A DNA stretch of 61,810 nt from Methylococcaceae bacterium (GTDB taxonomy: Bacteria; Patescibacteriota; Microgenomatia; UBA1400; PJMF01), in contig JBILVZ010000003.1 in NCBI GenBank assembly GCA_044370175.1, forward strand, positions 1 to 61,810, in the 5' to 3' direction. The notes under the pieces are model-generated. The model did not search any database. It saw only the letters and a program-made list of their open reading frames with translations, and had not been told where the DNA came from. Shown in pieces: positions 19,798 to 53,457 of the stretch (positions are counted from its first letter, which is position 1; every line of letters begins with the position of its first letter). The position numbers were made by a program, and so were the translations under genes.

Positions 19798-19805
19798 AGG
19801 AACTT

Positions 19806-20810: not shown

Positions 20811-20853
20811 TAAAATAAAACTCGATCTCGTGTGATTTTTTGACTGCCCAACC

Positions 20854-22038
20854 ATGAAAGAACATCCAATACCCCAAGATATTACCAACTACCGCTTTCA
20901 TATTGTCGGTAGTATGACGCTCAAACAGTTTGGGGAGTGTGCTCTAGGTGTTATTATCGGTTTACTCATCTATCAAACAAACCTCATCGCCATCATCAAG
21001 TGGCCGCTTATTCTTATTTTTGTGGGTGGTGGGTTTGCTGCTGCTTTTTTACCTATCGAGGAGCGTCCATTGAGTCATTGGATTTCTACCTTCATTAGTA
21101 TTCTGTATAAACCCACCCAGTTTTTTTGGAAGCGCAACTACAATATCCCCGCTCCATTTTTATTCAAAGCCGATCATGTTGATATTGCAACGTTACAAGA
21201 AATTGATTTGAGTCCGGTGCGGCGTCAAAGAATTAAAGAGTTTATTTCTTCAACAGCACCACTTGAGGGGCAGTCCGATTTTACAGTTGATGAACGCCTG
21301 CGGATGGCCAGTATTTTAGATATTTTTCAAACACAAACAGTCCGAGAGGTAGTTGTAGAACAGCGGTCAGAAATCAAGGATAAACCCAACTTAACGGTCC
21401 GTATTCGCAGTATGCGCCAAGCTACGATTACAGAGACTGTAGTACCTGAAGAACAGTTCTCTGCAAATGCTTTGGGGGGATCAGCCGCAGACACCTATCT
21501 ATTGGATACCAACGTTACACAAGAGCACCAGACTTCTAATAAAAAAGATGCGTATCTTGATACCACACAAGTTGCGCAATCTATTCAAGTCCCAGAGATA
21601 CAACCAGTTGAAGTAGCTCAAATGGTGAATGAAGATGAGTTTGCAGCATTAGTACACCAACAAACAACCAACAGCTCAGAGCGCGCTTTTATCAGTCAAA
21701 TGGCACCCACCACAGCTTCACTTACAGCTACAGATACCGTTCGCTTTAATGCATCACTCCCCTTCCCCAGCAAACCCAACACTCCAAACAAACTGGTGGG
21801 AATGATTTTGACACCTCGAGATGAACTAATTCCTGGAGCAATTATTGAGATACAAACTCCACAAGGAGTGGTCTCTCGCGCAGTAAAAAGTAATGCATTG
21901 GGACAATTTTTTATCACGACACCACTAGAAAATGGTGAATACATCGTTTCAGTAGAAAAAGATGGTCATACCTTCAAACCAATGACTATTACCTTAACAG
22001 GAAAAATTGTAGAACCACTAGAGGTACGCAGCGCATAA
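20854..22038 (+). CDS. PrgI/VirB3-like protein with C-terminal carboxypeptidase-regulatory-like beta domain
   Basis: HPIPQDITNYRFHIVGSMTLKQF + two TM + ERPLSHW (PrgI pattern); C-terminus LVGMILT..IPGAIIEI..SNALGQF..LENGEYIVSVEKDGHTF. Confidence 0.75.
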   Translation: MKEHPIPQDITNYRFHIVGSMTLKQFGECALGVIIGLLIYQTNLIAIIKWPLILIFVGGGFAAAFLPIEERPLSHWISTFISILYKPTQFFWKRNYNIPAPFLFKADHVDIATLQEIDLSPVRRQRIKEFISSTAPLEGQSDFTVDERLRMASILDIFQTQTVREVVVEQRSEIKDKPNLTVRIRSMRQATITETVVPEEQFSANALGGSAADTYLLDTNVTQEHQTSNKKDAYLDTTQVAQSIQVPEIQPVEVAQMVNEDEFAALVHQQTTNSSERAFISQMAPTTASLTATDTVRFNASLPFPSKPNTPNKLVGMILTPRDELIPGAIIEIQTPQGVVSRAVKSNALGQFFITTPLENGEYIVSVEKDGHTFKPMTITLTGKIVEPLEVRSA

Positions 22039-22115
22039 TAGATAAAAATACCAACTGCCTGTCTTGCGGGCTGGTAAGAAAGCCAGTACCATACAGAAGA
22101 GTGTAAAATACGTAT

Positions 22116-23384
22116 ATGTCTGAAATTATTCAATCCACTACCCAGCAGTTCTTAGACATCTATGATATCACCAATAATTTTGTGATCATGAAAGATGGAA
22201 CGGTGTCTACTATTCTCACAGTAGATGCCATGAATTTTGGACTTTTAGCAGAAGAGGAACAAGACGCCATCATGTATGCCTATGCTGGTTTACTCAACTC
22301 ACTCAACTACCCTATTCAAATTATTATTCACTCACAGACAAAAGATGTTACTTCATATCTTAAGATTCTCCAGGAACAAGAGCTTCAAGCTGAAAATGAA
22401 ACAATGCGCCGACGGATTAGGATGTACCGCGAGTTTGTAGGCAACCTTATTCATGAGCGAAACGTCTTAGACAAGAAGTTTTATGTAGTCATCCCTGCTA
22501 CTGCACTCGAAATGGGATTTTTAGCTACCTCTAGCATACTACCTGGTAGCAAGGCGTTTGATATTGGGACCGTTGAAAGATCTCTCATTATTGAAAAAGC
22601 ACAAAATCTACTTGATCCCAAGCGAGATCACCTAATTGCCCAGTTTGCACGTATTGGCCTATATTCTAGACAACTCACCACACAAGAAATCATTCAGTTG
22701 TTCTACGTCAGGTACAACCCTGAGGCAATTGAAGGACAACAAATTGGAGAAAGTACGAGTTATAGTACTCCACTTGTCAAGGCAAGTATCCAACAATCTA
22801 TGGTGCAAAGTATTCCCCCAGCTGCTGTTTTCACAAACCCAACTCCAACAGAGACTCCTGTCGCAACACAACCGCAAGTAGCTCAAAGCGCTGCTGTGAC
22901 ACTACAACCAGTCCCCGAAATTCACATCGCTGCTGAGCCACTGCTTACTTCACCTGAGATTTCACCGCAACCCTCCGCAACATTCACACAACCTCCAGTT
23001 CAGACACCACTACAGCAACCACTTCAACCAGATGTACAGGTAGAATACACAGCCCCACAAACGCAACCAACAGAAGGTATACAGCAACCAGTTGTAGCTG
23101 CCTACACTCCCCCCGCTCCAGTGACACAAACTGCGCCACAGGCAGCCGCGCCAATAACTGAAGTTTTCACCGCACCACCAGACACTGTAAAATCAAGTAC
23201 TCAGTCGATTCTGTCTGGGGTGGACGGTACTTCTGAGCAAAGTATTCAAGCCGACTTAAACGCAACGGTTCAATCACTCGGTATTGCGATACCTCCCACA
23301 CCTGCACAACCACCTGTAGCAACTCGCTCCCCTAACCCCCAAGCAGCTCAACAACAAGACTTACCACCGTTGCCAGAGATATAA
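22116..23384 (+). CDS. VirB4-associated protein resembling the N-terminal part of TrsE/TraE-type ATPases, with Pro/Gln/Thr-rich tail
   Basis: FLDIYDITNNFVIMKDG..VDAMNFGLLAEEEQDAI..LNSLNYPIQI..KKFYVVIP; no Walker motifs; sits between prgI and virB4. Confidence 0.65.
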   Translation: MSEIIQSTTQQFLDIYDITNNFVIMKDGTVSTILTVDAMNFGLLAEEEQDAIMYAYAGLLNSLNYPIQIIIHSQTKDVTSYLKILQEQELQAENETMRRRIRMYREFVGNLIHERNVLDKKFYVVIPATALEMGFLATSSILPGSKAFDIGTVERSLIIEKAQNLLDPKRDHLIAQFARIGLYSRQLTTQEIIQLFYVRYNPEAIEGQQIGESTSYSTPLVKASIQQSMVQSIPPAAVFTNPTPTETPVATQPQVAQSAAVTLQPVPEIHIAAEPLLTSPEISPQPSATFTQPPVQTPLQQPLQPDVQVEYTAPQTQPTEGIQQPVVAAYTPPAPVTQTAPQAAAPITEVFTAPPDTVKSSTQSILSGVDGTSEQSIQADLNATVQSLGIAIPPTPAQPPVATRSPNPQAAQQQDLPPLPEI

Positions 23385-23434
23385 AATAACTTCAACTCTT
23401 TGATGTGGTGTAAAATACCAGTACAATAAACATA

Positions 23435-25654
23435 ATGCCCGATTTATCATCACTCCTACCAGCATTTCCCTTTGGCAAAAAAAAGACAAAAGACGCTGGT
23501 CTGACGCCTGAGCAAATTCAAGAACAAAAAAACTTAGAAAAACTACAGCAGTTTTCTCGCGGTCTGGTAACGATTCAGGATATTATTGCGCCTGAAGCAA
23601 TCGAGGTGGACTTTACCTATCAGAAAATTAACTCAACCTATACACGCACGCTCTTTATTGCGGGATACCCCCGCACAGTACCCGCCAACTGGCTTGGGCC
23701 ACTCATCAACTATCCACACCAGATTACAACAGCTATGTTTGTTTTTCCTGTCGACTCTGCTGAAATCTTAGACAACCTTAAACGTAAAATCACCGAAATG
23801 GAAGCAGAAATTCAATCTGACCTTCGGGCTGGTAAAATTTCCAACATCAACACCGAAGTGAAACTCGAGGATGCTCGCTTTATCAGAGAAGAACTAGCCA
23901 AAGGTTCAGAGCGGTTTTTCCAGTTTGGGCTCTACATCACTATCCAAGCAAAAGATAAGGAAGAACTTGATAAAATTACTAAAAGTGTCCAATCGACACT
24001 TGGAGCACTCCTGATTGTTTCAAAAAAGGCCACACTCCAGATGGATGAGGGATTTAAGACCACCCTTCCAATGGGCACAGACAAACTCCTTGTCACCCGT
24101 AATATGGATACGACTTCGCTTGCGACCACGTTTCCCTTCACATCGTCTGAGCTCACGATGGAAACAGGTATCATGTATGGCATTAATGAGCATAATGATT
24201 CACTCGTCATCTTTGATCGCTTTAAGATGGAAAACGCCAATATGGTGATCTTTGCTAAGTCTGGTGCAGGAAAATCATATACCGTTAAGTTGGAAATTCT
24301 GCGTCAACTCATGTTTGGTGCTGAAGTGATTGTCATGGATCCTGAACACGAATATGAGGATTTATCACAAGCAGTTGGCGGTGAGTACATCAACTTCACG
24401 TTTGGTTCATCTACCAAAATCAACCCATTCGATTTAGCGAACCTCTACGAAGAGGGAGAAAATGAACTTGGACAAAAAGTCATTTCACTCCATGGGCTGT
24501 TAAAAGTGATGTTGGGCAACATGACCCCACAGCAAGATGCTCTTCTTGATAGAGCGCTCGTGGCTGCCTATAAAGCCAAAGGTATTACTCCAGATCCTGC
24601 TACTCAAGTGAATGAGCCACCACTTATGGAAGATGTCTATAAAGCACTGGTGGGTATGGAAAATAAAGATGCTGATGATATTTCAGCCCGCCTAGAAAAA
24701 TTCATCACAGGTTCGTTTCGAGGAATTTTTGATCAAAAATCCAACATTGACATTAAAAGCCAACTGACCGTCTTCTCTGTTAAGGAAATGGAAGATGAAA
24801 TGCGGCCAATTGCCATGTATATCATCTTAGACTTCATCTGGACTAGAGTACGTAAAGACCTCAAGAAGCGCTTGCTGATCATTGATGAGGCTTGGTACTT
24901 TATGAAGCATCCTGACTCTGCTTCATTTATTTTTTCGATGGTCAAACGAGCTCGAAAATACTACCTAGGAATCACCACTATCACCCAAGATGTGGAAGAC
25001 TTTTTACATACCGATTACGGGAAAGCGATCGTTACTAATGCTTCAATTCAATTTTTAATGAAACAGTCGACTGCATCTATTCCTGTTCTTGCTGAAACGT
25101 TTTATCTCTCACAAGGTGAACGTCAACTGCTTGTTACTTCAGATGTAGGAGAGGGAATTTTCTTTGCAGGACAAAACCACGTGGCACTGCGCGTGGTGGC
25201 TAGTGAAGAAGAACACACTCTTATCACCACCAACCCAGAGGAAGTTTTACGCCGAAGAAAAGTTCAAGAGAGAGCACGTACAGAAGCTGCACTACAAACA
25301 CAGCAGAACTTGCAAGGTGGGTATGGCATGACTGCTACACAGGCCACCCAGCCACAACAGCAGCAGTTTTCACAAACCCCACTTCAGCAGAGACTACAGT
25401 CACAACCGGCAGTTGCAACCAACCCAACACCTGCCGCGACAGCTGTACAGCAACAAAACCAACAGGAGTATTATGCTAGACCTCCCGCGGCACCGCAAAA
25501 AGCACAACCTCAGCCAGCTCAAGCGCAACCATCGGTGTTCAACAAGCCATCAACCGAACCAGAACTAGATCAGTATGGACTCCCCACAAAACCGCTCTAT
25601 ACACCCGACTCAATCGACAACTACCGACCACCAAGTCGTATCGTCAAGCCATAA
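23435..25654 (+). CDS. virB4: VirB4-like ATPase
   Basis: Walker A AKSGAGKS, DPEHEY, INPFD, Walker B LLIIDEAW, RARKY..ITQ; Gln/Pro-rich tail. Confidence 0.85.
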   Translation: MPDLSSLLPAFPFGKKKTKDAGLTPEQIQEQKNLEKLQQFSRGLVTIQDIIAPEAIEVDFTYQKINSTYTRTLFIAGYPRTVPANWLGPLINYPHQITTAMFVFPVDSAEILDNLKRKITEMEAEIQSDLRAGKISNINTEVKLEDARFIREELAKGSERFFQFGLYITIQAKDKEELDKITKSVQSTLGALLIVSKKATLQMDEGFKTTLPMGTDKLLVTRNMDTTSLATTFPFTSSELTMETGIMYGINEHNDSLVIFDRFKMENANMVIFAKSGAGKSYTVKLEILRQLMFGAEVIVMDPEHEYEDLSQAVGGEYINFTFGSSTKINPFDLANLYEEGENELGQKVISLHGLLKVMLGNMTPQQDALLDRALVAAYKAKGITPDPATQVNEPPLMEDVYKALVGMENKDADDISARLEKFITGSFRGIFDQKSNIDIKSQLTVFSVKEMEDEMRPIAMYIILDFIWTRVRKDLKKRLLIIDEAWYFMKHPDSASFIFSMVKRARKYYLGITTITQDVEDFLHTDYGKAIVTNASIQFLMKQSTASIPVLAETFYLSQGERQLLVTSDVGEGIFFAGQNHVALRVVASEEEHTLITTNPEEVLRRRKVQERARTEAALQTQQNLQGGYGMTATQATQPQQQQFSQTPLQQRLQSQPAVATNPTPAATAVQQQNQQEYYARPPAAPQKAQPQPAQAQPSVFNKPSTEPELDQYGLPTKPLYTPDSIDNYRPPSRIVKP

Positions 25655-25670
25655 TTTCCCCCTTGCCAAC

Positions 25671-25691
25671 TGTGAATAAGTCTGTGTATAA
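25671..25691. promoter_or_regulatory. Two DnaA boxes upstream of dnaA
   Basis: TGTGAATAA (25671-79) and TGTGTATAA (25683-91), i.e. TTATTCACA and TTATACACA on the minus strand. Confidence 0.75.
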
Positions 25692-25762
25692 CTAGACTTC
25701 TAGTACTATTCTCTTCTATATCAGAATAGAAATCACATTGATTTTTAGCCTGGAAGCGATAT

Positions 25763-27370
25763 ATGCAAGCGCCACTCACCAATCAAGAAGTTTCTGTAAT
25801 TTGGCAGCAGTATTGTGCTATTCTCCAGCAAAACATGACCCCTGCTGTCTATAACACTTGGATTCTCTCAAATCCTGTCACAGACATTTCTTTTCCTGAC
25901 GAATCCAGGGCCCTTGTCATCATTACAAGCCCTACTGCATTCCACTCCACAAACTTAAAGAAAAACCTACACATCCAGATTAAACAGGCACTTGATACAG
26001 TTTTACAACGCTCTAGTGAAGTCCAATATCAAATTGGAGATCCTCAGAAACTCAAAGCTACTCGCAAAGAACAACAGGGATTTTCTCAAGTGATGCAGCC
26101 TCACTTAGGTACCTCATTTGTTGATCATGCTGGGGCTCCACCAGAGCAACAAACCAATGGTGGATTTACTCCGACAAGACAACCAGGTGAGCAATTTTTG
26201 CAACAAGCTAGCTATACACACACTCAACAACAACCACTACAGCCATTGACTTCAAGTCAATCTCCTCGAGTTGAAGACTTGTTTTCAGAAAGCAATCTTC
26301 TCAATGCTGCTGAAGAGCGCTATCTGATGCAAGCACGAGGGATTGGACTGAGAACAGACTATGTTTTTAATACCTTTGCGGTTTCTACCACCAATGAGAT
26401 GGCTCATGCTGCCGCCACTGCCGTATCCAATAGACCAGGACAGTCCTACAATCCACTCTTTCTCTACGGTGGGGTCGGAGTCGGGAAAACGCACCTCATG
26501 CATGCAATTGGTCACAACATTCTCCGTGCAAATCCTACAGCAAAGATTATCTACTGTACCGGCGAAGAATTTACCAACGACATCGTTCATGCTATCCAGA
26601 CAAAGAAAGCTAGCCACTTTAAAGATCGCTACCGCAGTGCCAACGTTCTATTGATTGATGATATTCAGTTTATTGCAGGTAAAAACGCTGTGCAGGAAGA
26701 GTTTTTTCATACGTTTAACGCACTTACCAAGCAGTTTAGCCAAATTGTTCTGACTTCTGATAGACCACCACATGAGATTACACTTCTAGAAGACCGTCTG
26801 AGATCACGCTTTGAAGCAGGTTTGATGATTGATATTCAGCAGCCTTCCTTTGAACTGCGTACCGCAATTGTATTAGTTAAAGCCAAAGCCCAGCAGATCT
26901 CAATTACCATTGACTTAGCCAAGATTATTGCCTCAAAAGTGGAAAGTGCCCGTAAGATTGAAGGCATTATCACCAGTATAAGATCTGAAATTGAGCTCAA
27001 GAAAAAAGAGCTTAATCAGGATTTAATTGAAGATATACTCCAGGTTGAGGTGGAGACCAAACGCCTCCGTATTAAAGTTTCACCAGCTGATGTGCTTAAA
27101 ACAGTAGCCAATCACTACCATGTCAAACAGTCATCTCTTAAAGGATCAAGTCGATTAAAAAGCCTTGTCACAGCGCGCCATGTTGCAATGTATCTTCTTA
27201 AAAAAGAACTTTCTATGCCGCTGACCGAGATTGGACGTTGGTTTGCTAGTCGAGACCACACAAGCGTGTTGCACGCAGTTAAAAAGGTGGAGAAAGAAGT
27301 GGTACTCAATGACGAGATCAGGCAAGATGTTTCTGCACTACAAATGACCTTAGCAGCAATTTCAAAGTAA
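25763..27370 (+). CDS. dnaA: Chromosomal replication initiator DnaA
   Basis: YNPLFLYGGVGVGKTHL, LLIDDIQF, LTSDRPP..LEDRLRSRFEAGL, domain IV GRWFASRDHTSVLHA. Confidence 0.98.
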   Translation: MQAPLTNQEVSVIWQQYCAILQQNMTPAVYNTWILSNPVTDISFPDESRALVIITSPTAFHSTNLKKNLHIQIKQALDTVLQRSSEVQYQIGDPQKLKATRKEQQGFSQVMQPHLGTSFVDHAGAPPEQQTNGGFTPTRQPGEQFLQQASYTHTQQQPLQPLTSSQSPRVEDLFSESNLLNAAEERYLMQARGIGLRTDYVFNTFAVSTTNEMAHAAATAVSNRPGQSYNPLFLYGGVGVGKTHLMHAIGHNILRANPTAKIIYCTGEEFTNDIVHAIQTKKASHFKDRYRSANVLLIDDIQFIAGKNAVQEEFFHTFNALTKQFSQIVLTSDRPPHEITLLEDRLRSRFEAGLMIDIQQPSFELRTAIVLVKAKAQQISITIDLAKIIASKVESARKIEGIITSIRSEIELKKKELNQDLIEDILQVEVETKRLRIKVSPADVLKTVANHYHVKQSSLKGSSRLKSLVTARHVAMYLLKKELSMPLTEIGRWFASRDHTSVLHAVKKVEKEVVLNDEIRQDVSALQMTLAAISK

Positions 27371-27718
27371 CTATTACTCCTCGTTATTTTTTAGAACACA
27401 CTATTAGTAGGTGTTATTTACCTCAAGTTATTGCAGATGACGAGGCATACACCTCAAAACTTTTCCACAAATGTGCACAACTATGTGTATAAACTGTCAG
27501 TAAGCAACTGAACAGTTTGTGCACAAAAATAGAAGAATGTTTACAACTTTGAGTTTTCAACAATTGTCTACACAGCAATCCACAGAAGTTTTCAACAAGA
27601 GGAGCTGAGTACATTTCACACATCATGCACGTTCACCTACCAGACTTAATAAGGGCAGTTTTCAACACGCAGCGGTTTCCCTACTATTACTACAACTATT
27701 TTATATATAATAGATAGT
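27371..27718. other. Replication origin oriC (DnaA-box cluster, DnaA-trios, AT-rich unwinding element)
   Basis: Boxes TTTTCCACA 27461, TGTGCACAA 27472, TGTGTATAA 27484, TTGTGCACA 27517, TTTTCAACA 27554/27589/27659, CAATCCACA 27576; trios CTACTATTACTACAACTA 27681-98; AT-run before dnaN. Confidence 0.85.
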
Positions 27719-28828
27719 ATGCAGATCATCGTGTTACAAGAAAATTTACAAAACGCACTTACGTACCTACAAAAGGCAATTCCTTCAAAACCGCAGGTAC
27801 CTATTCTCTCTTCGATCTTACTTTCTGTTAGTGAGAATGTCTGTACGTTGGGTGCAACAGATCTCTACTTCGGGGTCAAAGCTACCATAGCTGCACAGAT
27901 TGAAAAAGAAGGGCAAGTAGCAGTACCAGGAAAAGAATTTCGAGAAATAATTGGATCACTCCCCGCAGGTGAGATTCAGATGGCATTTACAGGAAACACT
28001 CTAACTATCACGACAGCACACACACACTTTTCACTTCAATGCCAAGACTGCACTGACTACCCTCAGTTTCCCCAGGTTTCTGGAGAAAAAGCTATCTTTA
28101 CTCGAAATATGGTAGAGGTTGTGTCTCAACTTGTTTTGTTTAGTACGTCTGCAGATCAAGCACGACCACTCTTGACAGGAGTGCTCTTCTCTCTTGATGC
28201 TGAAAAAACGCGAGCGGTGGCAACAGATGGCTTTAGACTCTCTGTTTGTGATTTTGCACCGCCACCTGAACAACAACCGATACAGTTTATACTGCCTTCC
28301 CGTGTCGTTTCGGAAGTCTGTCGTATCTCTGCACAAATGCAAGCTGAAACCGTGGTTTTCACTGTCTCAGAGAGCTTGAAACAAGTCTTTATTGCCTTCG
28401 ATAGCATCGAAATTTACGCACGGGTGTTGGAAGGTGAGTATCCACCATACGAAAAAATTATTCCTGCTAGTTTTACTACTCAACTCACCGTCGCAGGTGA
28501 TGAAGTCTTAGAACAGGTCAAGCGTTCAACAATTTATTCTCGAGATACCTCAAACATTGTGCAGTGCGAAGTAAGTCCTGAAAACCTTACGATCAAAGCT
28601 ACTTCCTCTGCTCTAGGAACTTTTTCTGGTGAAGTCCCGTCAGTGCAAGTTGCTGGACCAGGTGGTGTGATCGCCTTTAAAGCAAAGTATATTTTAGATT
28701 TTCTCCAAGCTGCAAAGCAGATGGAGATTCAGATGAGTATGAATGATAGCTTAAAACCCGCTCTTTTTCAAGCAAAAGAGCTCCCAGGTTTTAGATATAT
28801 AGTTATGCCATTCCGTGTTAGCAGTTAG
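27719..28828 (+). CDS. dnaN: DNA polymerase III beta clamp
   Basis: PILSSILL, LGATDL, STSADQARPLLTGV, VATDGFRLS, LEGEYPPYEKIIP, YIVMP; follows dnaA. Confidence 0.97.
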   Translation: MQIIVLQENLQNALTYLQKAIPSKPQVPILSSILLSVSENVCTLGATDLYFGVKATIAAQIEKEGQVAVPGKEFREIIGSLPAGEIQMAFTGNTLTITTAHTHFSLQCQDCTDYPQFPQVSGEKAIFTRNMVEVVSQLVLFSTSADQARPLLTGVLFSLDAEKTRAVATDGFRLSVCDFAPPPEQQPIQFILPSRVVSEVCRISAQMQAETVVFTVSESLKQVFIAFDSIEIYARVLEGEYPPYEKIIPASFTTQLTVAGDEVLEQVKRSTIYSRDTSNIVQCEVSPENLTIKATSSALGTFSGEVPSVQVAGPGGVIAFKAKYILDFLQAAKQMEIQMSMNDSLKPALFQAKELPGFRYIVMPFRVSS

Positions 28829-47740: not shown

Positions 47741-48670
47741 ATGAGTAGCGTGTCAGATCACTTCTATAGAGACTTACTACTAACTTTGGCATATAGTGCT
47801 CAGTTTAGCTATCCACTGACTGTGGGTGAGTTGTTTTTGCGTCGCATAGCACGTTCTACAAAAGTAGGTTTAGTGCAGTATGCTCGAGAAACAATTTTTA
47901 TTTTGCCCGCACTTGTTCAGTTAATTAGATTTGGTAAAGTAGAGTACTTAGGTGGGTATCTGTTTCTGTCGGGTGAACAACACACAGTTGCAACACGTAC
48001 CAGAAGAAAAAAAACGACTGCAGCTAAATTTGCAGAGCTTGAGCCACTTATCTCAATTTTACGTAAATTACCAGGTATCGCTGGAGTAGCAATCACTGGT
48101 TCAGCAGCGGTTTTTAATGCTGATACAAATGATGATGTTGATCTGCTAATTATTACGGAGGATCAGCGTCTTTGGATTTTACGACCGCTGATTCTTTTTT
48201 TTGCATTCCTTTATGGAAAACGGCGCACCTGGCACAGAGAAGAAAAAAACAGTTGGTGCTTTAATCTTTGGCTTGAGCGATCAGCACTGGCTCAACCACG
48301 ACCTTCCCATTCGCTGTATGTTGCCTATGAAGTGTGCCAAGCTAAATGGGTGATTGATGTCGGAGATTGTAAACAATCGTTTTTGCGTCGTAATCACTGG
48401 GTGCGTTCTTATATACCTGTGTACTACAGTTGGTGTAAGGATCAATCAGTAGTATACACATACGGTTCACAGCAAAACTATTTGGCGTATTGGCCAGTTC
48501 TCTCTGAGTGTATAGGGATCTTAAACTACTGCGCCTATCTACTGCAAAGATGGTATATGTCGCAACATATGACTCGAGAGCGAGTGACACTTCAAGCTGC
48601 TTTCTTTCACCCAAGAGACACTGGGCTCATTGTCGCTGCTAAATATCATGATATAGTGAGGAAGTTATAA
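47741..48670 (+). CDS. Pol-beta-superfamily nucleotidyltransferase-like protein
   Basis: VAITGSAA..DDVDLLII (GS..DxD motif); true start may be GTG 47750 because TATAAT overlaps ATG 47741. Confidence 0.65.
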   Translation: MSSVSDHFYRDLLLTLAYSAQFSYPLTVGELFLRRIARSTKVGLVQYARETIFILPALVQLIRFGKVEYLGGYLFLSGEQHTVATRTRRKKTTAAKFAELEPLISILRKLPGIAGVAITGSAAVFNADTNDDVDLLIITEDQRLWILRPLILFFAFLYGKRRTWHREEKNSWCFNLWLERSALAQPRPSHSLYVAYEVCQAKWVIDVGDCKQSFLRRNHWVRSYIPVYYSWCKDQSVVYTYGSQQNYLAYWPVLSECIGILNYCAYLLQRWYMSQHMTRERVTLQAAFFHPRDTGLIVAAKYHDIVRKL

Positions 48671-49137: not shown

Positions 49138-50568
49138 ATGGCAAAAGTTAAAACTCAGTTTGTCTGTCAAAGTTGTGGGCAAAGCTACCCACGCTGGACA
49201 GGGCAGTGTCCAAACTGTAGTGCTTGGAATACCCTGGTCGAAGAGCTCAAAGAAACTAAGGCTGCAGGACTTTCTCGAGTCGCAGCTCCAGCTATAGGTA
49301 TTCCGTTTTCTCGAGTCGAGCTCATAAAAGACGCAAAAAGACGGTTTTCAACAGGAGTTGGAGAGTTGGATCGTGTTTTGGGTGGTGAGAAAGAGGTGAT
49401 GGGGATGGTGCGAGGAGCAGTAATGCTGATTGGCGGCGAGCCAGGTATTGGCAAGTCAACGCTGCTGACACAAGTAGTCCTAGAACAACTACGAGCTGTG
49501 CAAGCTACAGAACAAGCAAACCAAATCAAGCTACCTAACGGTGGCACTCCAGTGAAAGTGCGTCCCATTGTGTATGTTTGTGGTGAAGAGAGTCCAAGTC
49601 AAATAACGCTACGAATCAATAGAATTCTTGAACTTCAAACACAAAAAATAGAAGATAGGTCTGTCTTAGAAAACCTACTATTTTTGCCCAGCACTGATGT
49701 TGATAGGGTAGTTTCAGCACTGCGTGAGCTTGAGCCACAACTAGTGGTAGTGGATAGTATCCAGACTATGACAACTGAGGACTTGCTCGGTTCTTCTGGA
49801 AGTGTTGGCCAGGTGCGTGAGTCTGCAGAGCGTTTATCACAGGTCGCTAAAGAAGTAGGATTTCCCATGTTTCTGGTTGGCCATGTTACAAAGGAAGGGC
49901 AGCTGGCAGGACCAAAAGTCCTTGAACACATTGTTGATACAGTTTTAGAGCTGACGGGCGAGCGTACGAGCGACTTGCGCTTAGTGCGTGCCATCAAAAA
50001 TCGCTTTGGGGCAACAGATGAAGTGGGGGTTCTGCAGCTTGGAGAGGCTGGGTTCATTTCAGTGGCTAATCCTAGCAGCCTATTCCTTGAGCATCAGCAG
50101 AAGCCGGTGGCAGGTTCAGCCACGGTCTGTGTTTTGGAGGGTACTCGACCACTCTTGTTGGAAGTTCAAGCACTTGCAGTTCGCTCACAGCTGGCAATGC
50201 CTCGTCGAGTTGGACGTGGGGTAGAGCTTACTCGTATTCAAGTTATTTCCGCAATTTTACAGAAATATTGCCGCATGCCTCTTGATAACTATGACTTATT
50301 TATTAACTTAGCAGGTGGATACTCAACAAAAGAGCCAGGACTTGATCTGGGAATGGCGCTCGCTATAGCTAGCTCGTTACAAAATAAACCAATTCCAGCC
50401 GGTACAGTTTTTATTGGTGAGGTAGGGTTGTTGGGGGAAATTCGCCAAGTAAACCTGATTGACAGGCGAGTAAAGGAGAGTTTAAGGCTTGGATTTAGTG
50501 ATGTTATATCAAAGCAAACCCACAGTTCGATAAAAAATATTGTTCATCAATTCGGCTTAGATTCGTAA
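49138..50568 (+). CDS. radA: DNA repair protein RadA/Sms
   Basis: C4 Zn finger CQSCG..CPNC, Walker A GEPGIGKS, DSIQT, KNRFG, Lon-like C-terminus GEVGLLGEIR. Confidence 0.97.
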   Translation: MAKVKTQFVCQSCGQSYPRWTGQCPNCSAWNTLVEELKETKAAGLSRVAAPAIGIPFSRVELIKDAKRRFSTGVGELDRVLGGEKEVMGMVRGAVMLIGGEPGIGKSTLLTQVVLEQLRAVQATEQANQIKLPNGGTPVKVRPIVYVCGEESPSQITLRINRILELQTQKIEDRSVLENLLFLPSTDVDRVVSALRELEPQLVVVDSIQTMTTEDLLGSSGSVGQVRESAERLSQVAKEVGFPMFLVGHVTKEGQLAGPKVLEHIVDTVLELTGERTSDLRLVRAIKNRFGATDEVGVLQLGEAGFISVANPSSLFLEHQQKPVAGSATVCVLEGTRPLLLEVQALAVRSQLAMPRRVGRGVELTRIQVISAILQKYCRMPLDNYDLFINLAGGYSTKEPGLDLGMALAIASSLQNKPIPAGTVFIGEVGLLGEIRQVNLIDRRVKESLRLGFSDVISKQTHSSIKNIVHQFGLDS

Positions 50569-50666: not shown

Positions 50667-52820
50667 TTATTTGCGCTTAGCGTACCGCTCGCCACTACTG
50701 CGCAACACCTTCTCGCGGTTGCTGTTATTACTTTTTGAGAGTCCAAGTGTTTGAGCGGGGAAGGGTGCAGAGATTTGATTGTTAATAGCGATCTTATTGA
50801 TAATCTGATATTTACCCAGTGAAACCAAGTCCTCAGAAGTGTAGGCATCACCAAACTCTTTATTAAAAACCTGTGCATCGTCTGCGCCCATCACAAAACT
50901 AACGATACTACCACAGTTACCAAAGATTGCCTTCTGCACCTCTTCTGGAACCTGAGCAATATATTGATTGGCCAAAGTTAGATTGAGTCGATACTTACGA
51001 GCTTCAGATAAAATTTTGGTGAAAGACTCAGTGGCGAAGTTTTGAAATTCATCAACATAGAGATAAAAATCTCTACGAGATTCCTCAGGGACATGCACTC
51101 GAGCCATTGCTGCTAGCTGAATCTTAGTAATCAACATAGCACCCAAAAGAGTTGCATTGTCTTCACCTAGCTTCCCTTGGGAAAGATTGACCAATATAAT
51201 TTTACCTTGATCCATCGCTTCCTCAATGCTGAACGAACTTTTGCGCGCATTCACCACATCGCGAATCAGTGGAGAAGAGACAAACTGCCCAACTTTATTG
51301 AGAATAGGTGCAATTGCCTCATTACGCTGCTTATCTTGTAGCACATCAAATTCATTTACCCAGAAATTTTTTAAGATTGGATCATCCAGCTTTTCTACCA
51401 TCTGCATGCGAAATTTAGCATCAGTCAACATGTCTACAATATCCGAGAGGCGAGCGCTCTCACTTTTGAGTAAGGTAAGTAGGGCGTTGCGTAAAATATA
51501 CTCAAGCCGTGGCCCCCAAGAGTATGAGTAAAGTTTTCTAAAAACAGAAACAATGCCTGAAGCAATCAGTTCACGATGGACAACATTATTGCCTTCAAAG
51601 AGGTTGAGCCGCACTGTTCGTTCGGGGTCGCTGGGGTCAAAATAAATGGTGTCATTGATCCGATGGGAGGGGATATAGTTGAGGAGTGTTTCAACTAGAT
51701 CTCCATGTGGGTCAATCACACACAACCCTTCGTCATTGCGTAGATCATTAATGGCCATGTTTGCCAGCATGGTAGACTTACCGGTACCGGTTTTTCCAAT
51801 TACATACAGGTGACGGCGTCGATCTGTTCTCTGCAGGCCGTAGACGGTTTCACTATTTTTGTAGAGGGTGCGCGCAAAGCAGTTGATCTCTCCTTTTGCT
51901 TCAGCAGACATCTCAACGGTGAGAATAGGCAAATTTTCAGGTGGTTCACCGAGTAGTTTTTTGCCCCAGGCGATATTCATTACAGTTGTCAATAAATTGT
52001 TTGGAAGGTGAAAGAGTGTTGCTAGTTCACTTACACTCAAGTGATTAGTTTTTTGCCAGCCAAAGGCACGCCGTTTAACTGTTTGTAAAAATGACTTTTT
52101 AAAGAACCAGACAAAAGAGACTTTGAGATAGTTGCTTTCACTCAAAGAAAATGCCTGAAAAGCATTACTGATATTTTCAAAGACGAGGTTGCTGCGTTCA
52201 TCTGAGTCTGAGCTAACGATTAAACGGATTGCCACTTGCAGAGATTCAAGACTAGTTTTTCTTGCGATTAAACTTTGTTGGGGATGTGGGGTTGTGGTAG
52301 TAGCGTCAGTTGGTTTCCACGTCTGTTTTTCTTTAGATACAACAAACTGCAGCAAAATCCGGTCAAAAGGGCCAGCTTGAGAAAGAGTGGAGAGCAGGGG
52401 GAGGAGCGCATCTGTACTCGAAAATTGATCAAAAGTCTTAAGTGGCAAGTAGTCAGCATTACCCAGTCGTACGGTACCAAGTTGGAGGAATCTACTTTGA
52501 CTTTCCACAAAGTGGTCATGTAGATGTAAAAAACCATCAACGGGATCTTGTTCTAGGGGCGTAATCAGTACCTGCGGGTAGCTGGCAAAGAGCAGGCTCT
52601 TGATGTACTCGACCAAACGGGTGGGGCAGTAGCAGAGAAAAAATATTGTTTGATTTTCTACTAAGATTTCAAAACTAATATATTCACTCTTTCGGTTTAG
52701 TTTGCTCCAAAGAGTGTTTTGTAGTTCTGGCAGTGCTCCAAATAGTTGAACTGCCGCTTCGCAAGTGTAGGTATTATTGCGTCCAACGCGTAGTTCAAGC
52801 AGTGTGTGTGGTGCGGGCAT
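50667..52820 (-). CDS. VirD4/TrwB-like coupling ATPase
   Basis: DRRRHLYVIGKTGTGKST, VIDPHGDL, YLYVDEFQNF, LSEARKYRLNLTLANQYIAQ, IFGNCGS. Confidence 0.85.
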   Translation of the reverse strand: MPAPHTLLELRVGRNNTYTCEAAVQLFGALPELQNTLWSKLNRKSEYISFEILVENQTIFFLCYCPTRLVEYIKSLLFASYPQVLITPLEQDPVDGFLHLHDHFVESQSRFLQLGTVRLGNADYLPLKTFDQFSSTDALLPLLSTLSQAGPFDRILLQFVVSKEKQTWKPTDATTTTPHPQQSLIARKTSLESLQVAIRLIVSSDSDERSNLVFENISNAFQAFSLSESNYLKVSFVWFFKKSFLQTVKRRAFGWQKTNHLSVSELATLFHLPNNLLTTVMNIAWGKKLLGEPPENLPILTVEMSAEAKGEINCFARTLYKNSETVYGLQRTDRRRHLYVIGKTGTGKSTMLANMAINDLRNDEGLCVIDPHGDLVETLLNYIPSHRINDTIYFDPSDPERTVRLNLFEGNNVVHRELIASGIVSVFRKLYSYSWGPRLEYILRNALLTLLKSESARLSDIVDMLTDAKFRMQMVEKLDDPILKNFWVNEFDVLQDKQRNEAIAPILNKVGQFVSSPLIRDVVNARKSSFSIEEAMDQGKIILVNLSQGKLGEDNATLLGAMLITKIQLAAMARVHVPEESRRDFYLYVDEFQNFATESFTKILSEARKYRLNLTLANQYIAQVPEEVQKAIFGNCGSIVSFVMGADDAQVFNKEFGDAYTSEDLVSLGKYQIINKIAINNQISAPFPAQTLGLSKSNNSNREKVLRSSGERYAKRK

Positions 52821-52876
52821 GATGAGATAAGTATACCACTTCGAGTGGGTAGGTCGTTATAGCAGGTTAAAAATGT

Positions 52877-52895
52877 TGTGTACAAGTTATCCACA
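52877..52895. promoter_or_regulatory. Pair of DnaA boxes upstream of the VirD4-like gene
   Basis: TGTGTACAA (52877-85) and perfect TTATCCACA (52887-95), opposite orientations, 1 nt apart, intergenic. Confidence 0.6.
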
Positions 52896-53003
52896 GCGAT
52901 TGGTGAAAAACAATAGTTGTTTATAATTACTTATTTTATTGGCTAAAATACTTGCTATAAAAAATATGGGACTTATATTAAAACCGAAAAAAGAAACTAT
53001 AGG

Positions 53004-53032
53004 TTGACGAGAAAAGAGCAGATCGCTATACT
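53004..53032 (+). promoter_or_regulatory. Sigma70-type promoter for candidate ncRNA
   Basis: TTGACG-N17-TATACT. Confidence 0.7.
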
Positions 53033-53038
53033 ACGAAT

Positions 53039-53321
53039 AATTAAGTTTTACCGAAAGAAGATTGAGTGTTTTTAGGAAAAAGAGAGGAGAAATAAAAAAA
53101 GCATCACTACCGCTGGACAGACCACGAGAAGCAATGCCTTTTTCTATAGAGATCCATCAATTTTGATGAATCCTCAAGTGAACAAAAATATACCAAGTTC
53201 ACACCTTTCTGTAAACTCAATCTTATCGCAGCTAAACATATTAAACTATACCTATGAGAGTGTTTTGTGGGAGTTCGGCAGTTGGGCAGGCAGCCGAGCT
53301 CCCACAAAGCACTCTCTTTTT
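53039..53321 (+). ncRNA. Candidate structured ncRNA (~280 nt), family unknown
   Basis: Bounded by a promoter and a terminator; nested helices (see findings); no convincing ORF. Confidence 0.5.
53256..53321 (+). terminator. 24-bp hairpin plus U-tract
   Basis: GAGAGTGTTTTGTGGGAGTTCGGC / GCCGAGCTCCCACAAAGCACTCTC, 13-nt loop, two G-U pairs on the + strand, then TTTTT. Confidence 0.8.
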
Positions 53322-53401
53322 GTATGCTCACCATGTTTTGGCTAAATAAGTACTTAATCGTTGAACCCACCGACTGAACCAGATGGAAGTATCCTATAAA
53401 C

Positions 53402-53430
53402 TTGAAAAATAGCTGAAAATGTGCTATAGT
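53402..53430 (+). promoter_or_regulatory. Promoter of sortase gene
   Basis: TTGAAA-N17-TATAGT with extended -10 TG. Confidence 0.55.
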
Positions 53431-53457
53431 TGCGCGAGTAGTTAGCTATATGTTGTC

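What the first reader, a model, noticed from the sequence alone, without database searches (positions are those of the whole stretch)
53004..53321. Candidate novel multi-stem ncRNA with its own promoter and a 24-bp terminal hairpin
Seen: TTGACG-N17-TATACT, then nested helices. P1 AAGATTGAGT 53058-67 / ACTCAATCTT 53215-24 is a perfect 10 bp; P2 AGAGAGG 53081-87 / CCTTTCT 53204-10 has one G-U. These enclose P3 AAAAAGCAT 53096-104 / ATGC(C)TTTTT 53134-43, P4 CATCA 53155-59 / TGATG 53164-68 and P5 GTGAAC 53178-83 / GTTCAC 53197-202. A 24-bp hairpin follows whose only two non-Watson-Crick pairs are G-U on the + strand, then TTTTT. The downstream sortase has its own promoter. Inference: a stand-alone ~280-nt structured RNA sharing a divergent promoter region with the VirD4-like gene. 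It lacks hallmark motifs of RNase P RNA, tmRNA and SRP RNA.
Basis: partly seen in the sequence, partly recalled or inferred. Interest (0 to 1): 0.72.

Follow-up and report, generated by a model that had tools for sequence, protein, structure and literature searches.

The report
Clade-specific structured small RNA gene
Between two protein genes of an uncultured ultra-small (Patescibacteria/Microgenomates) bacterium lies a previously uncatalogued, independently transcribed ~280-nt structured RNA gene. It is conserved in about 50 related species, and its invariant hairpin loop may pair with the start region of a secretion-system gene.

Summary
The described sequence features are all present: a TTGACG-N17-TATACT promoter, the nested helices, a 24-bp hairpin and a T-run. 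The fold is far better than shuffles (z -8.3).

The window is a Patescibacteria (Microgenomates/Pacebacteria-type) chromosome, not a mobile element.

About 53 non-identical homologues from ~50 species-level MAGs share four features:
- the promoter, with a TATAGG box;
- a long bulged hairpin (P3);
- a variable hairpin (P4);
- a terminal 22-24-bp hairpin whose 11-nt loop GUUGGGCAGGC never varies.

P3 and the terminal hairpin covary strongly (11/21 and 17/24 pairs compensatory; G-U pairs fit the + strand only).

No Rfam family matches the window or 18 homologous loci. The element is single-copy. Neither flanking gene is constant: the conserved order is radA-[virD4-like]-RNA-[variable gene]-rho.

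Three independent metatranscriptomes contain contigs confined to the predicted transcript of one homologue.

Function is not shown. My best guess is a trans-acting RNA using the loop as an antisense seed. A 9-nt perfect complement sits at -10..-2 of a Shine-Dalgarno-less PrgI-like type IV secretion gene and recurs in 11/20 orthologues. This is suggestive and was found post hoc. A protein-binding scaffold is the main rival.

The parts
52998..53003 (+). TATAGG box abutting the -35 hexamer (TATAGGTTGAC)
   Evidence: Present directly upstream of the -35 in 34 of 45 members that have a recognisable promoter. The only exact TATAGGTTGAC in the window. Function not tested.
53004..53032 (+). Sigma-70-type promoter: TTGACG (-35), 17-nt spacer, TATACT (-10)
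   Evidence: 10/12 match. A promoter of 10-12/12 sits at the equivalent place in 45 of 53 members. It is the only TTGAC-N17-19-TAYAMT match in the 61.8-kb window.
53039..53321 (+). Predicted RNA gene, about 283 nt. The start is inferred from the -10 hexamer and the end from the T-run; neither is mapped.
   Evidence: Inference. Family members are predicted to be 241-418 nt, median 315. In homologue L005, metatranscriptome contigs lie inside the equivalent interval and none crosses the promoter.
53039..53094 (+). Variable 5' leader.
   Evidence: Its length (about 17-190 nt) and sequence are not conserved. P1 pairing is kept only in the closest relatives (L002, L214), without compensatory change. 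Other clades carry one or two unrelated hairpins here, several with GGNCAG-type loops.
53095..53143 (+). P3: a long hairpin of about 21 bp. It has an A-run/U-run base, a mostly non-canonical A-C position, and a conserved bulged core CG(C)UGG...CCACG(A). The apical loop varies.
   Evidence: RNAalifold consensus. 87.5% of cells paired, with 11/21 pairs changed on both sides, e.g. AU to GC at the base and GC to AU at the top. CGCUG and CACGA are invariant or nearly so.
53149..53175 (+).
   Evidence: MFE. 47 unique homologues were folded separately at this position; the folded segments average 11 bp, mean z = -2.0 (23 of 47 below -2), and the stems are unrelated in sequence where a clear hairpin forms. 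MAFFT misaligns it, so formal pair counts are uninformative.
53187..53224 (+). Conserved junction: A53187, UA 53191-92, C53194 (the 'AUAYCA' motif); invariant GUAAA 53211-15 within UGUAAAY; AUCUU 53220-24
Evidence: Invariant or nearly invariant columns of the 51-sequence alignment. No consistent pairing partner was found.
53256..53316 (+). Terminal hairpin: 24-bp stem and 13-nt loop (53280-92) with the invariant GUUGGGCAGGC at 53281-91
   Evidence: arms. 91.7% of cells paired, with 17/24 pairs changed on both sides. Many U-G/G-U pairs would be A-C on the other strand. The 11 loop bases are identical in all 52 aligned sequences.
53317..53321 (+). T-run (U-run), giving the hairpin the form of an intrinsic terminator
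   Evidence: A U-run follows the hairpin in 39 of 53 members.
20844..20852 (+). Candidate target site (hypothesis only): CUGCCCAAC, a perfect complement of loop bases GUUGGGCAG, at -10..-2 of the AUG of a PrgI-like type IV secretion gene (20854-22038) that has no Shine-Dalgarno sequence
   Evidence: It is the best of 44 translation-start regions in the window (-17.9 kcal/mol against a mean of -7.0, sd 2.8). Related motifs (CUGCCCA, UUGCCCA, CUGUCCA) occur at the same place in 11 of 20 orthologues; only 2.1% of shuffled loops reach that count. Found post hoc.

Best explanation
This is a single-copy, independently transcribed gene for a structured small RNA. It is about 283 nt here and 240-420 nt in relatives. 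The family is restricted to one clade of Microgenomates-group Patescibacteria (Pacebacteria/Microgenomatus-type genomes).

A near-consensus promoter with a TATAGG box drives it. The conserved body has four parts:
- a long bulged hairpin (P3);
- a variable hairpin (P4);
- a single-stranded junction with fixed motifs (AUAYCA, UGUAAAY, AUCUU);
- a rigid 22-24-bp terminal hairpin that presents an invariant 11-nt G-rich loop and usually doubles as the intrinsic terminator.

Most likely mechanism (inferred, not shown): the RNA acts in trans. The exposed loop GUUGGGCAGGC serves as an antisense seed that pairs with C-rich, Shine-Dalgarno-less translation-start regions. The best candidate is the PrgI-like gene of the chromosomal type IV secretion-like cluster, so pairing would change its translation or stability. 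The bulged P3 core and the junction motifs would then be sites for a helper protein or for tertiary structure.

Shown: sequence and structure conservation with covariation, strand, copy number, independence from the flanking genes, absence from Rfam, and presence of a homologue in metatranscriptomes.

Inferred: transcript ends, trans action, seed pairing, target identity and direction of regulation.
For: Identity as an RNA gene:
- Nucleotide-level conservation of the intergenic region in genomes whose neighbouring VirD4-like protein is only about 55-63% identical.
- 53 non-identical members from about 50 species-level MAGs, one per genome.
- Covariation in P3 and the terminal hairpin, with shuffle and slide controls. 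P4 is kept as a structure with unrelated sequences.
- G-U pairs fit only the + strand.
- A promoter of 10-12/12 in 45 of 53 members, the strongest in the window. A U-run in 39 of 53.
- The flanking genes vary, and downstream genes have their own promoters.
- No open reading frame survives the compensatory changes and loop indels.
- No Rfam hit in the window or in 18 homologous loci.

Expression:
- In three metatranscriptomes from three studies, contigs 99-100% identical to homologue L005 lie at 2500-2747, 2607-2763 and 2605-2764. All are inside the predicted transcript (predicted start about 2778) and none crosses the promoter.
- In two of the runs, essentially nothing else of the 8.1-kb locus is seen.

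Seed hypothesis:
- The 11 loop bases are invariant while the stem below them changes freely.
- The window's PrgI-like translation-start region is the best of 44.
- 11 of 20 orthologous start regions pair at -10 kcal/mol or better. Their mean is -11.1 against -7.1 for 1000 composition-matched shuffled loops; 0.1% of shuffles reach the mean and 2.1% reach the count.
- A second gene (47741-48670) and its orthologues in L217 and L205 carry CCUGCCCAA / CCUGCCU in the 5' UTR.
- Of 330 genes in RNA-bearing loci, 13 have a perfect complement of 7 nt or more in -40..+3. Shuffled loops give 2.1 +/- 1.8, and the same-sense control gives 2.
Against: - No transcript ends, strand or abundance were measured for the window's own copy. 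The homologue evidence comes from low-depth contigs (2-5x) without strand information.
- The target site was found by scanning, so it is post hoc. About 1.4 nine-mer complements are expected by chance in the window, and the total count of 7-mer complements is at chance (54 vs 52.8).
- The orthologous start regions are phylogenetically related, so the shuffle p-values overstate independence. 6 of the 13 'regulon' hits are PrgI orthologues.
- The site is missing in 9 of 20 orthologues, including genomes that carry the RNA with the same invariant loop (L263, L265-L267, L254-L256, L262). PrgI therefore cannot be the universal reason for loop invariance.
- The loop could equally be a protein-binding site.
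- The middle of the RNA has no resolved consensus fold.
Confidence: 0.5

Rival explanations
1. Protein-binding (ribonucleoprotein or sponge) RNA. The invariant loop on a long rigid stem and the conserved bulged helix in P3 are docking sites for one or more proteins. The RNA scaffolds, sequesters or is an integral subunit of a clade-specific complex, and the mRNA complementarities are coincidental.
For: - Absolute invariance of 11 loop bases, and of the CGCUG/CACGA bulged core, across about 50 species. This is typical of protein recognition sites (general knowledge).
- The strongest promoter in the window and conserved single-copy synteny resemble housekeeping stable RNAs.
- GGNCAG-type loops recur in extra 5' hairpins of several clades, which resembles multi-site decoy RNAs.
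- The candidate mRNA site is absent from many RNA-bearing genomes.
Against: - No partner protein is identifiable. No gene co-varies in position with the RNA, since both neighbours are replaceable.
- The P3 apical loop, which carries one of the GGNCAG copies, varies freely.
- Enrichment of loop complements upstream of genes would be unexplained.
Confidence: 0.3
2. Cis-acting leader or attenuator of the downstream operon (sortase-like gene and rho). The terminal hairpin is a regulated terminator, and read-through controls rho expression.
For: - The RNA is always co-oriented with, and upstream of, rho, at 0.9-3.8 kb.
- In L005, L018 and L198 rho follows directly.
- 14 of 53 members lack a U-run, so read-through is conceivable.
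- In metatranscriptome X40 a contig covers the stretch between the RNA's end and rho.
Against: - The gene immediately downstream differs between members: sortase-like, small lipoprotein, MGMT-like, or rho.
- Promoter-like sites lie between the RNA and the next gene, in the window TTGAAA-N17-TATAGT at 53402-30.
- No alternative anti-terminator pairing is conserved.
- An invariant terminator loop and a 24-bp stem are not features of known attenuators (general knowledge).
- Metatranscriptome contigs stop at or before the hairpin in X39 and X41.
Confidence: 0.1
3. DNA-level element, for example an origin-of-transfer-like or recombination hairpin used by the type IV secretion-like machinery whose coupling-protein gene lies next to it.
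For: - A long inverted repeat in a divergent intergenic region next to a VirD4-like gene is the classic setting of an oriT (general knowledge).
- Both strands fold well.
Against: - The arms covary while the loop is fixed, the reverse of relaxase-bound repeats.
- The many G-U (G-T) pairs fit one strand only.
- A consensus promoter and a U-run bracket the element.
- No relaxase gene is nearby, and the VirD4-like gene is absent beside 8 members.
- The region appears in metatranscriptomes without its flanks.
Confidence: 0.04
4. Ordinary intergenic sequence: a terminator plus chance helices, with no dedicated function.
For: P1, P2 and P5 are indeed idiosyncratic to the window and its closest relatives.
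Against: Conservation, covariation and promoter conservation hold across about 50 species whose flanking proteins are only about 55-60% identical.
Confidence: 0.02

Closest known systems
Staphylococcus aureus RNAIII and related multi-hairpin regulators such as RsaE (comparison from my own knowledge, not tested here)
   Same: A stand-alone, several-hundred-nt RNA built as a string of hairpins. Conserved apical loops are thought to pair with translation-start regions of target mRNAs. The last hairpin doubles as the terminator.
   Different: There is no sequence or Rfam relationship. The loop here is G-rich and would pair with C-rich, Shine-Dalgarno-less start regions, whereas RNAIII's C-rich loops pair with the Shine-Dalgarno sequence. 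No encoded peptide. The 24-bp perfect stem is much longer. Targets are unproven.
FinP antisense RNA of F-like plasmids, which represses traJ and hence the conjugative type IV secretion genes (own knowledge)
   Same: A small hairpin RNA whose loop contacts the ribosome-binding region of a type IV secretion-related mRNA. It is genetically linked to secretion/transfer genes; here it usually sits next to the VirD4-like gene.
   Different: FinP is cis-encoded and fully complementary to its target. This RNA is trans-encoded about 32 kb from the candidate target, with only 7-9 nt of complementarity. It is chromosomal, not plasmid-borne. No FinO/ProQ partner was examined.
OxyS-fhlA type loop-to-mRNA 'kissing' regulation (own knowledge)
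   Same: A short (7-9 nt) loop-mediated pairing overlapping the start region would suffice for regulation.
   Different: No homology. OxyS is stress-induced and Hfq-dependent; nothing is known here.
Housekeeping stable RNAs (6S RNA, SRP RNA, RNase P RNA, tmRNA)
   Same: Single copy, strong promoter, conserved synteny, highly conserved loops, size range.
   Different: None of their defining motifs or architectures is present, and Rfam and ARAGORN find nothing. The family is confined to one clade: it is absent near the orthologous gene in Woese-, Shapiro-, Gottesman-, Saccharibacteria, Peregrinibacteria and Gracilibacteria loci.

Membership tests
Any Rfam 15 family | Covariance-model score at or above the family's gathering threshold | tested here: not met
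   0 hits in the whole window and 0 hits in 18 homologous loci, 139 kb. In E-value mode on 52750-53500 only implausible sub-threshold hits appear, e.g. mir-3622 at 29 bits against a threshold of 78 on both strands, which is just the hairpin.
tmRNA | tRNA-like acceptor/T-arm domain plus a tag-peptide reading frame | tested here: not met
   ARAGORN finds no tRNA or tmRNA in the window. No Rfam hit.
SRP RNA (4.5S / scRNA) | Helix 8 with a GNAR tetraloop and conserved symmetric and asymmetric internal loops | tested here: not met
   The terminal hairpin is continuously paired with a 13-nt loop, and P3 has a variable apical loop. No Rfam SRP hit. The motif comparison rests on my own knowledge.
RNase P RNA | P4 pseudoknot and conserved regions CR-I to CR-V; about 330-400 nt | tested here: not met
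   No Rfam hit. The conserved motifs seen (CGCUG/CACGA, UGUAAAY, GUUGGGCAGGC) do not correspond to them (own knowledge).
6S RNA | 5' and 3' ends pair into a closing stem, giving a long rod around a central bubble | tested here: not met
The conserved fold is separate hairpins. No Rfam hit.
Intrinsic (Rho-independent) terminator (terminal hairpin only) | Stable G+C-containing hairpin directly followed by a U-run | tested here: met
   The window has a 24-bp stem followed by UUUUU, and 39 of 53 members have a U-run. This does not explain the invariant 11-nt loop, the conserved stem length, or the 14 members without a U-run.
REP / MITE-type repeated hairpin | Many copies per genome | tested here: not met
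   The loop motif occurs once in the window, with one 1-mismatch chance match. The specific pattern occurs once per genome in the species-representative collection, apart from one MAG with two near-identical contigs. None in viral contigs except a chance hit in a coding region.
Riboswitch / cis-regulatory leader | Constant association with one downstream gene family, and no promoter between the element and the gene | tested here: not met
   The downstream gene varies (sortase-like, lipoprotein, MGMT-like, rho), and promoter-like sites intervene.
Trans-encoded base-pairing sRNA with a loop seed (RNAIII / OxyS / FinP-like way of working) | Own promoter and terminator; evidence of transcription | tested here: met
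   The promoter is conserved and a U-run is present in 39 of 53 members. Metatranscriptome contigs are confined to the predicted transcript of homologue L005. Not shown for the window's own copy.
Trans-encoded base-pairing sRNA with a loop seed (RNAIII / OxyS / FinP-like way of working) | Conserved unpaired seed, and conserved complementary sites at orthologous target start regions | tested here: inconclusive
   The seed is invariant. A PrgI-like start-region site is present in 11 of 20 orthologues and enriched over shuffled loops. However, it was found post hoc, the orthologues are non-independent, and it is missing from several RNA-bearing genomes.
Trans-encoded base-pairing sRNA with a loop seed (RNAIII / OxyS / FinP-like way of working) | Regulatory effect on the target, abolished by seed mutation and restored by compensatory mutation | not testable with these tools
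   Requires a reporter or genetic experiment.
oriT-type DNA hairpin | Sequence-conserved repeat arms next to a nic site, with an adjacent relaxase gene | tested here: not met
   The arms covary and the loop is fixed; wobble pairs are strand-asymmetric. No relaxase among the neighbours, which are RadA, a VirD4-like ATPase, a sortase-like protein, Rho and M23.

The most novel reading that the evidence does not exclude
A clade-specific riboregulator of the chromosomal type IV secretion-like apparatus of episymbiotic Patescibacteria. An invariant G-rich loop held on a 24-bp stem would pair directly with the Shine-Dalgarno-less start regions of secretion genes (PrgI-like and others). This would give these minimal genomes, which have few transcription factors, an RNA switch for the machinery thought to mediate host contact or DNA exchange. 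It would be the first functionally assigned sRNA in the candidate phyla radiation.
Probability: 0.3. Interest if true: 0.78.

Novelty: new variant of a known kind. Interest (0 to 1): 0.62.

Why it matters
My four literature searches found nothing on non-coding RNAs specific to Patescibacteria or the candidate phyla radiation, beyond the universal RNAs.

This finding provides four things:
- a well-supported new RNA family of about 50 species with strong covariation and a defined promoter;
- evidence of expression for one member;
- an invariant 11-nt loop that must contact something conserved;
- a concrete, cheaply testable hypothesis that links it to the type IV secretion-like system, which is a hallmark of these host-dependent bacteria.

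Even if the target guess is wrong, the family can be added to RNA databases. That would improve annotation of hundreds of MAGs. The conserved promoter (TATAGG + TTGACA-N17-TATACT) is also a useful reference for promoter structure in these organisms.

Tried and rejected
1. A loose collection scan with GGNNGTTGGGCAGGCARC returned mostly chance hits in unrelated phyla and wasted one genome scan. The tighter two-block pattern worked.

2. Small-protein reading. The window ORFs at 53062-53166 (34 aa) and 53163-53345 (60 aa) were rejected. Substitutions are compensatory for helices, one clade has in-frame stops in P3, and P3 loop lengths differ by 1-4 nt.

3. P1/P2 as a family-wide closing helix was rejected. 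P5 was rejected.

4. An alternative junction helix ('J1', AUAYCAAG with the segment after AUCUU) looks convincing in L004, L015, L217, L236, L229 and L202. Over all members, however, cognate duplexes are no better than non-cognate ones (-3.94 vs -3.74 kcal/mol, p about 0.23). Left unresolved.

5. A naive all-against-all column covariation scan to find pseudoknots was swamped by clade structure.

6. The idea that GGNCAG loops are repeated protein sites was weakened because the P3 apical loop varies (GAUGAAUC, GGCUACCC and others).

7. Loop complementarity to a conserved 23S rRNA segment (GCCUGCCC, recalled from memory) is 8 nt only, which is at chance level and could not be tested. Dropped.

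8. More distant homologues were sought next to VirD4-like genes of other CPR classes with a profile HMM and a covariance model. None were found.

9. The Blackburnbacteria locus L093 carries the same loop motif in a different structured intergenic region next to an IS200-like transposase. This may be chance and was not pursued.

10. RNA-labelled runs for the window's own species were uninformative, as was the wastewater lead for L198.

11. A viral-contig scan gave one chance hit inside a coding region.
Full report
**1. The observation**

- Promoter: TTGACG (53004-09), a 17-nt spacer, TATACT (53027-32). The consensus scan recognises it at 10/12.
- Helices P1 to P5 as listed.
- A 24-nt inverted repeat, 53256-79 / 53293-316, with a 13-nt loop, followed by TTTTT.

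RNAfold of 53040-53321 reproduces every helix and gives -92.9 kcal/mol. Two hundred dinucleotide shuffles give -56.5 +/- 4.4, so z = -8.3. The reverse strand also folds well (z = -7.3), so the fold energy alone does not assign the strand. This promoter is the only TTGAC-N17-19-TAYAMT match in the 61.8-kb window.

**2. Context**

The window is not a conjugative element. The neighbouring genes are chromosomal housekeeping genes:
- RadA, 49138-50568;
- a VirD4/TrwB-like ATPase, 50667-52820 on the minus strand;
- the 637-nt intergenic region that holds the finding;
- a weak sortase-like gene, 53458-54252;
- Rho, an M23/LysM peptidase and Obg.

Farther away lie dnaA and dnaN, directly after a type IV secretion-like cluster. 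That cluster comprises a 1597-aa M23 peptidase, a PrgI-like gene, a TraC-like gene and a VirB4-like ATPase. Relatives of the VirD4-like protein are all Patescibacteria (CPR) MAGs. The closest are labelled Pacebacteria, Microgenomates or 'Woesebacteria'; many carry wrong labels such as 'Pseudomonadales' or 'TM6'.

**3. A conserved family**

The intergenic region is conserved at the nucleotide level. nhmmer with the window's region finds it upstream of the VirD4-like gene in 13 loci, although that protein is only about 56-79% identical there. A specific two-block pattern (GTAAAY, a gap, then the loop) found 54 stretches in the species-representative genome collection. About 50 are true, all from this CPR clade, with one per genome.

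In total there are 53 non-identical members. They share:
- a near-consensus promoter, at least 10/12 in 45 members, preceded by TATAGG in 34;
- P3, a hairpin of about 21 bp with an A-run/U-run base, a mostly non-canonical A-C position and an invariant bulged core CG(C)UGG/CCACG(A);
- P4, a hairpin of variable sequence;
- a junction with invariant or near-invariant bases (AUAYCA, UGUAAAY, AUCUU);
- a 22-24-bp terminal hairpin whose 11 loop bases GUUGGGCAGGC are identical in all 52 aligned sequences.

The 5' leader between the start and P3 varies from about 17 to 190 nt. It is unrelated between clades. Predicted lengths are 241-418 nt, median 315.

**4. Structure tests**

On the 51-sequence alignment:
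- P3 is paired in 87.5% of cells, with 11 of 21 pairs changed on both sides.
- The terminal hairpin is paired in 91.7% of cells, with 17 of 24 pairs changed on both sides.
- The whole-structure covariation score is 0.324. Column shuffles give 0.184 (0 of 500 reach the observed value) and partner slides of 1-3 columns give 0.08-0.13.

RNAalifold finds the same two helices independently. Frequent U-G and G-U pairs would be A-C on the other strand, which places the functional single strand on the window's + strand.

P4 cannot be scored on a MAFFT alignment. When each of 47 unique sequences is folded separately, the segment at that position forms on average 11 bp (mean z = -2.0; 23 of 47 below -2). 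Where a clear hairpin forms, the stem sequences are unrelated between members.

- P1 and P2: cognate 5' regions pair with the UGUAAAY-AUCUU segment no better than shuffles (7.4 vs 7.2 nt). P1 survives only in the nearest relatives, without compensatory change.
- P5: 42% paired, equal to the slid controls.

An alternative junction helix is convincing in some members but not across the family. The middle of the RNA remains unresolved.

**5. What it is not**

- No Rfam 15 family reaches threshold in the window or in 18 homologous loci. E-value mode gives only noise. ARAGORN finds no tmRNA or tRNA.
- It is not a repeated element and is not in viral contigs.
- It is not coding. Substitutions are compensatory, one clade has stops in the only conserved frame, and loops differ by 1-4 nt.
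- It is not a leader of a particular gene. The conserved order is radA - [VirD4-like, opposite strand, absent in at least 8 members] - RNA - [sortase-like, small lipoprotein, MGMT-like, or nothing] - rho - M23. Promoter-like sites precede the downstream genes.
- A DNA-level reading (oriT-like hairpin) fits poorly. The arms covary while the loop is fixed, wobble pairs are strand-specific, and no relaxase gene is nearby.
- The hairpin has terminator form, but 14 of 53 members lack the U-run. It is therefore more than a terminator.
- Profile and covariance-model searches found no relative beside the orthologous gene in other CPR classes.
- Four literature searches found no description of such an RNA.

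**6. Expression**

For the window's own species only DNA runs and uninformative RNA-labelled runs were found.

For homologue L005, three metatranscriptomes from three different studies each contain a contig that is 99-100% identical. The contigs cover L005 2500-2747, 2607-2763 and 2605-2764. All lie inside the predicted transcript. The -10 hexamer ends at 2785, the predicted start is about 2778, and the terminal hairpin begins at about 2495. None crosses the promoter.

In two of the runs essentially nothing else of the 8.1-kb locus is detected. In the third, rho and VirD4 contigs appear at similar or lower depth. This argues against DNA carry-over and for a discrete, relatively abundant RNA. 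Depth is low (2-5x), however, and contigs carry no strand information.

**7. Mechanism (inferred)**

An 11-nt sequence that never changes, sitting on a stem that changes freely, must contact a conserved partner.

I searched the window for complements of the loop. The overall number of 7-mer complements is at chance (54 vs 52.8). One 9-nt perfect complement, CUGCCCAAC, lies at -10..-2 of the AUG of the PrgI-like secretion gene, which has no Shine-Dalgarno sequence.
- Among 44 translation-start regions in the window, this one gives by far the best duplex with the loop: -17.9 kcal/mol against a mean of -7.0, sd 2.8.
- In 20 orthologues the same position carries CUGCCCA, UUGCCCA, CUGUCCA or CCUGCC in 11. 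These include lineages only 42% identical in protein, and the rest of the spacer is not conserved.
- Composition-matched shuffled loops reach that count in 2.1% of trials and reach the observed mean energy in 0.1%.
- A second gene (47741-48670) and its orthologues in two other clades carry CCUGCCCAA-type sites in the 5' UTR.
- Across 330 genes in RNA-bearing loci, 13 have a complement of 7 nt or more in -40..+3, against 2.1 +/- 1.8 for shuffled loops.

Caveats:
- The site was found post hoc.
- The orthologues are not independent; 6 of the 13 hits are PrgI orthologues.
- Nine of the 20 orthologues lack the site, including RNA-bearing genomes with the identical loop. PrgI alone cannot explain the invariance.

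My estimates are:
- about 0.85 that this is a genuine independent RNA gene;
- about 0.4-0.45 that it acts by loop-mediated base pairing;
- about 0.3 that the PrgI-like mRNA is a true target.

The main rival, at about 0.3, is a protein-binding scaffold or decoy.

**8. Comparison with known systems (from my own knowledge)**

In its way of working, the closest analogues would be multi-hairpin regulators that use apical loops to pair with start regions. These are S. aureus RNAIII and RsaE, OxyS-fhlA kissing, and FinP, the hairpin antisense RNA that controls the type IV secretion genes of F-like plasmids.

It is a member of none of them. There is no homology. It is trans-encoded and chromosomal. 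Its seed is G-rich and would pair with C-rich, Shine-Dalgarno-less sites. The 24-bp perfect stem is unusual.

**9. Verdict**

This is a real and apparently undescribed structured sRNA family, confined to one Microgenomates clade. Function is unknown, and a concrete, testable type IV secretion target hypothesis is offered.

Noticed in passing
window 15004-28828: A chromosomal type IV secretion-like cluster sits directly upstream of dnaA (25763-27370) and dnaN (27719-28828). It comprises a 1597-aa M23 peptidase, a 334-aa unknown, a PrgI-like gene (20854-22038), a TraC-like gene (22116-23384) and a VirB4-like ATPase (23435-25654). The cumulative GC skew turns at about 28-34 kb, so the cluster abuts the probable replication origin.
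   Followed up: partly
window 20820-20853, 23400-23434, 57365-57394; L008, L009, L011 and L131 downstream of the RNA: Many genes have no purine-rich Shine-Dalgarno sequence. In the L008 clade a TATAAT box lies only about 7-10 nt before the ATG of the gene after the RNA, which suggests leaderless or near-leaderless mRNAs in these genomes.
   Followed up: no
window 52998-53003; L008, L009, L011 and L131 upstream regions: The RNA promoter is preceded by a TATAGG box. The L008 clade has two or three spaced (A/C)TATAGGA boxes upstream of a TTGAAA-N16-TATAAT promoter. This could be a transcription-factor site or UP-like element specific to this gene.
   Followed up: partly
L093 5490-5830 (- strand), Candidatus Blackburnbacteria MHCB01000038.1: A different structured intergenic region of about 300 nt (z = -3.0) has its own TTGACT-N17-TACAAT promoter and carries the same GUUGGGCAGGC motif in the loop of a short hairpin. 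It lies between a Y-family DNA polymerase gene and an IS200-like Y1 transposase gene. It may be a distant module relative or a chance match.
   Followed up: partly
window 51285-51294: The VirD4-like mRNA (minus strand) contains AGUUGGGCAG, a 10-nt copy of the RNA's loop sequence (identical, not complementary). About 0.5 such matches are expected by chance in the window.
   Followed up: no
window 54443-54940 and Rho genes in L005, L018, L008 and others: Only residues from about 145-170 onward of the 544-aa Rho align between members. The N-terminal region of about 150 aa is hypervariable and low-complexity, like the Rho insertion domains of some other phyla.
   Followed up: no
window 53106/53132 (alignment A2 columns 12/42): One position in the middle of P3 is non-canonical (mostly A opposite C) in 38 of 51 sequences, and A-U or G-C in the rest. 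This conserved mismatch may be a recognition or protonation site.
   Followed up: no
L004 about 2545-2600, L015 about 2520-2580, L007 about 1455-1580 (- strand): Some members carry an extra hairpin, or an insertion of about 120 nt, between the junction and the terminal hairpin. That linker therefore tolerates insertions.
   Followed up: no
L219 and L241 (contigs CAYNWG010000065.1 and CAYNWG010000004.1): One MAG (SRP286056_co1_440) has the RNA locus on two contigs with nearly identical sequence and the same neighbours. This is probably strain heterogeneity or a binning duplicate rather than a true second copy.
   Followed up: no
L002-L018 and L203-L247 record titles: Many of these Patescibacteria contigs are deposited under clearly wrong names ('uncultured Pseudomonadales', 'Gammaproteobacteria', 'Limisphaerales', 'candidate division TM6'). 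Taxon labels of these records cannot be used to define the family's range.
   Followed up: no
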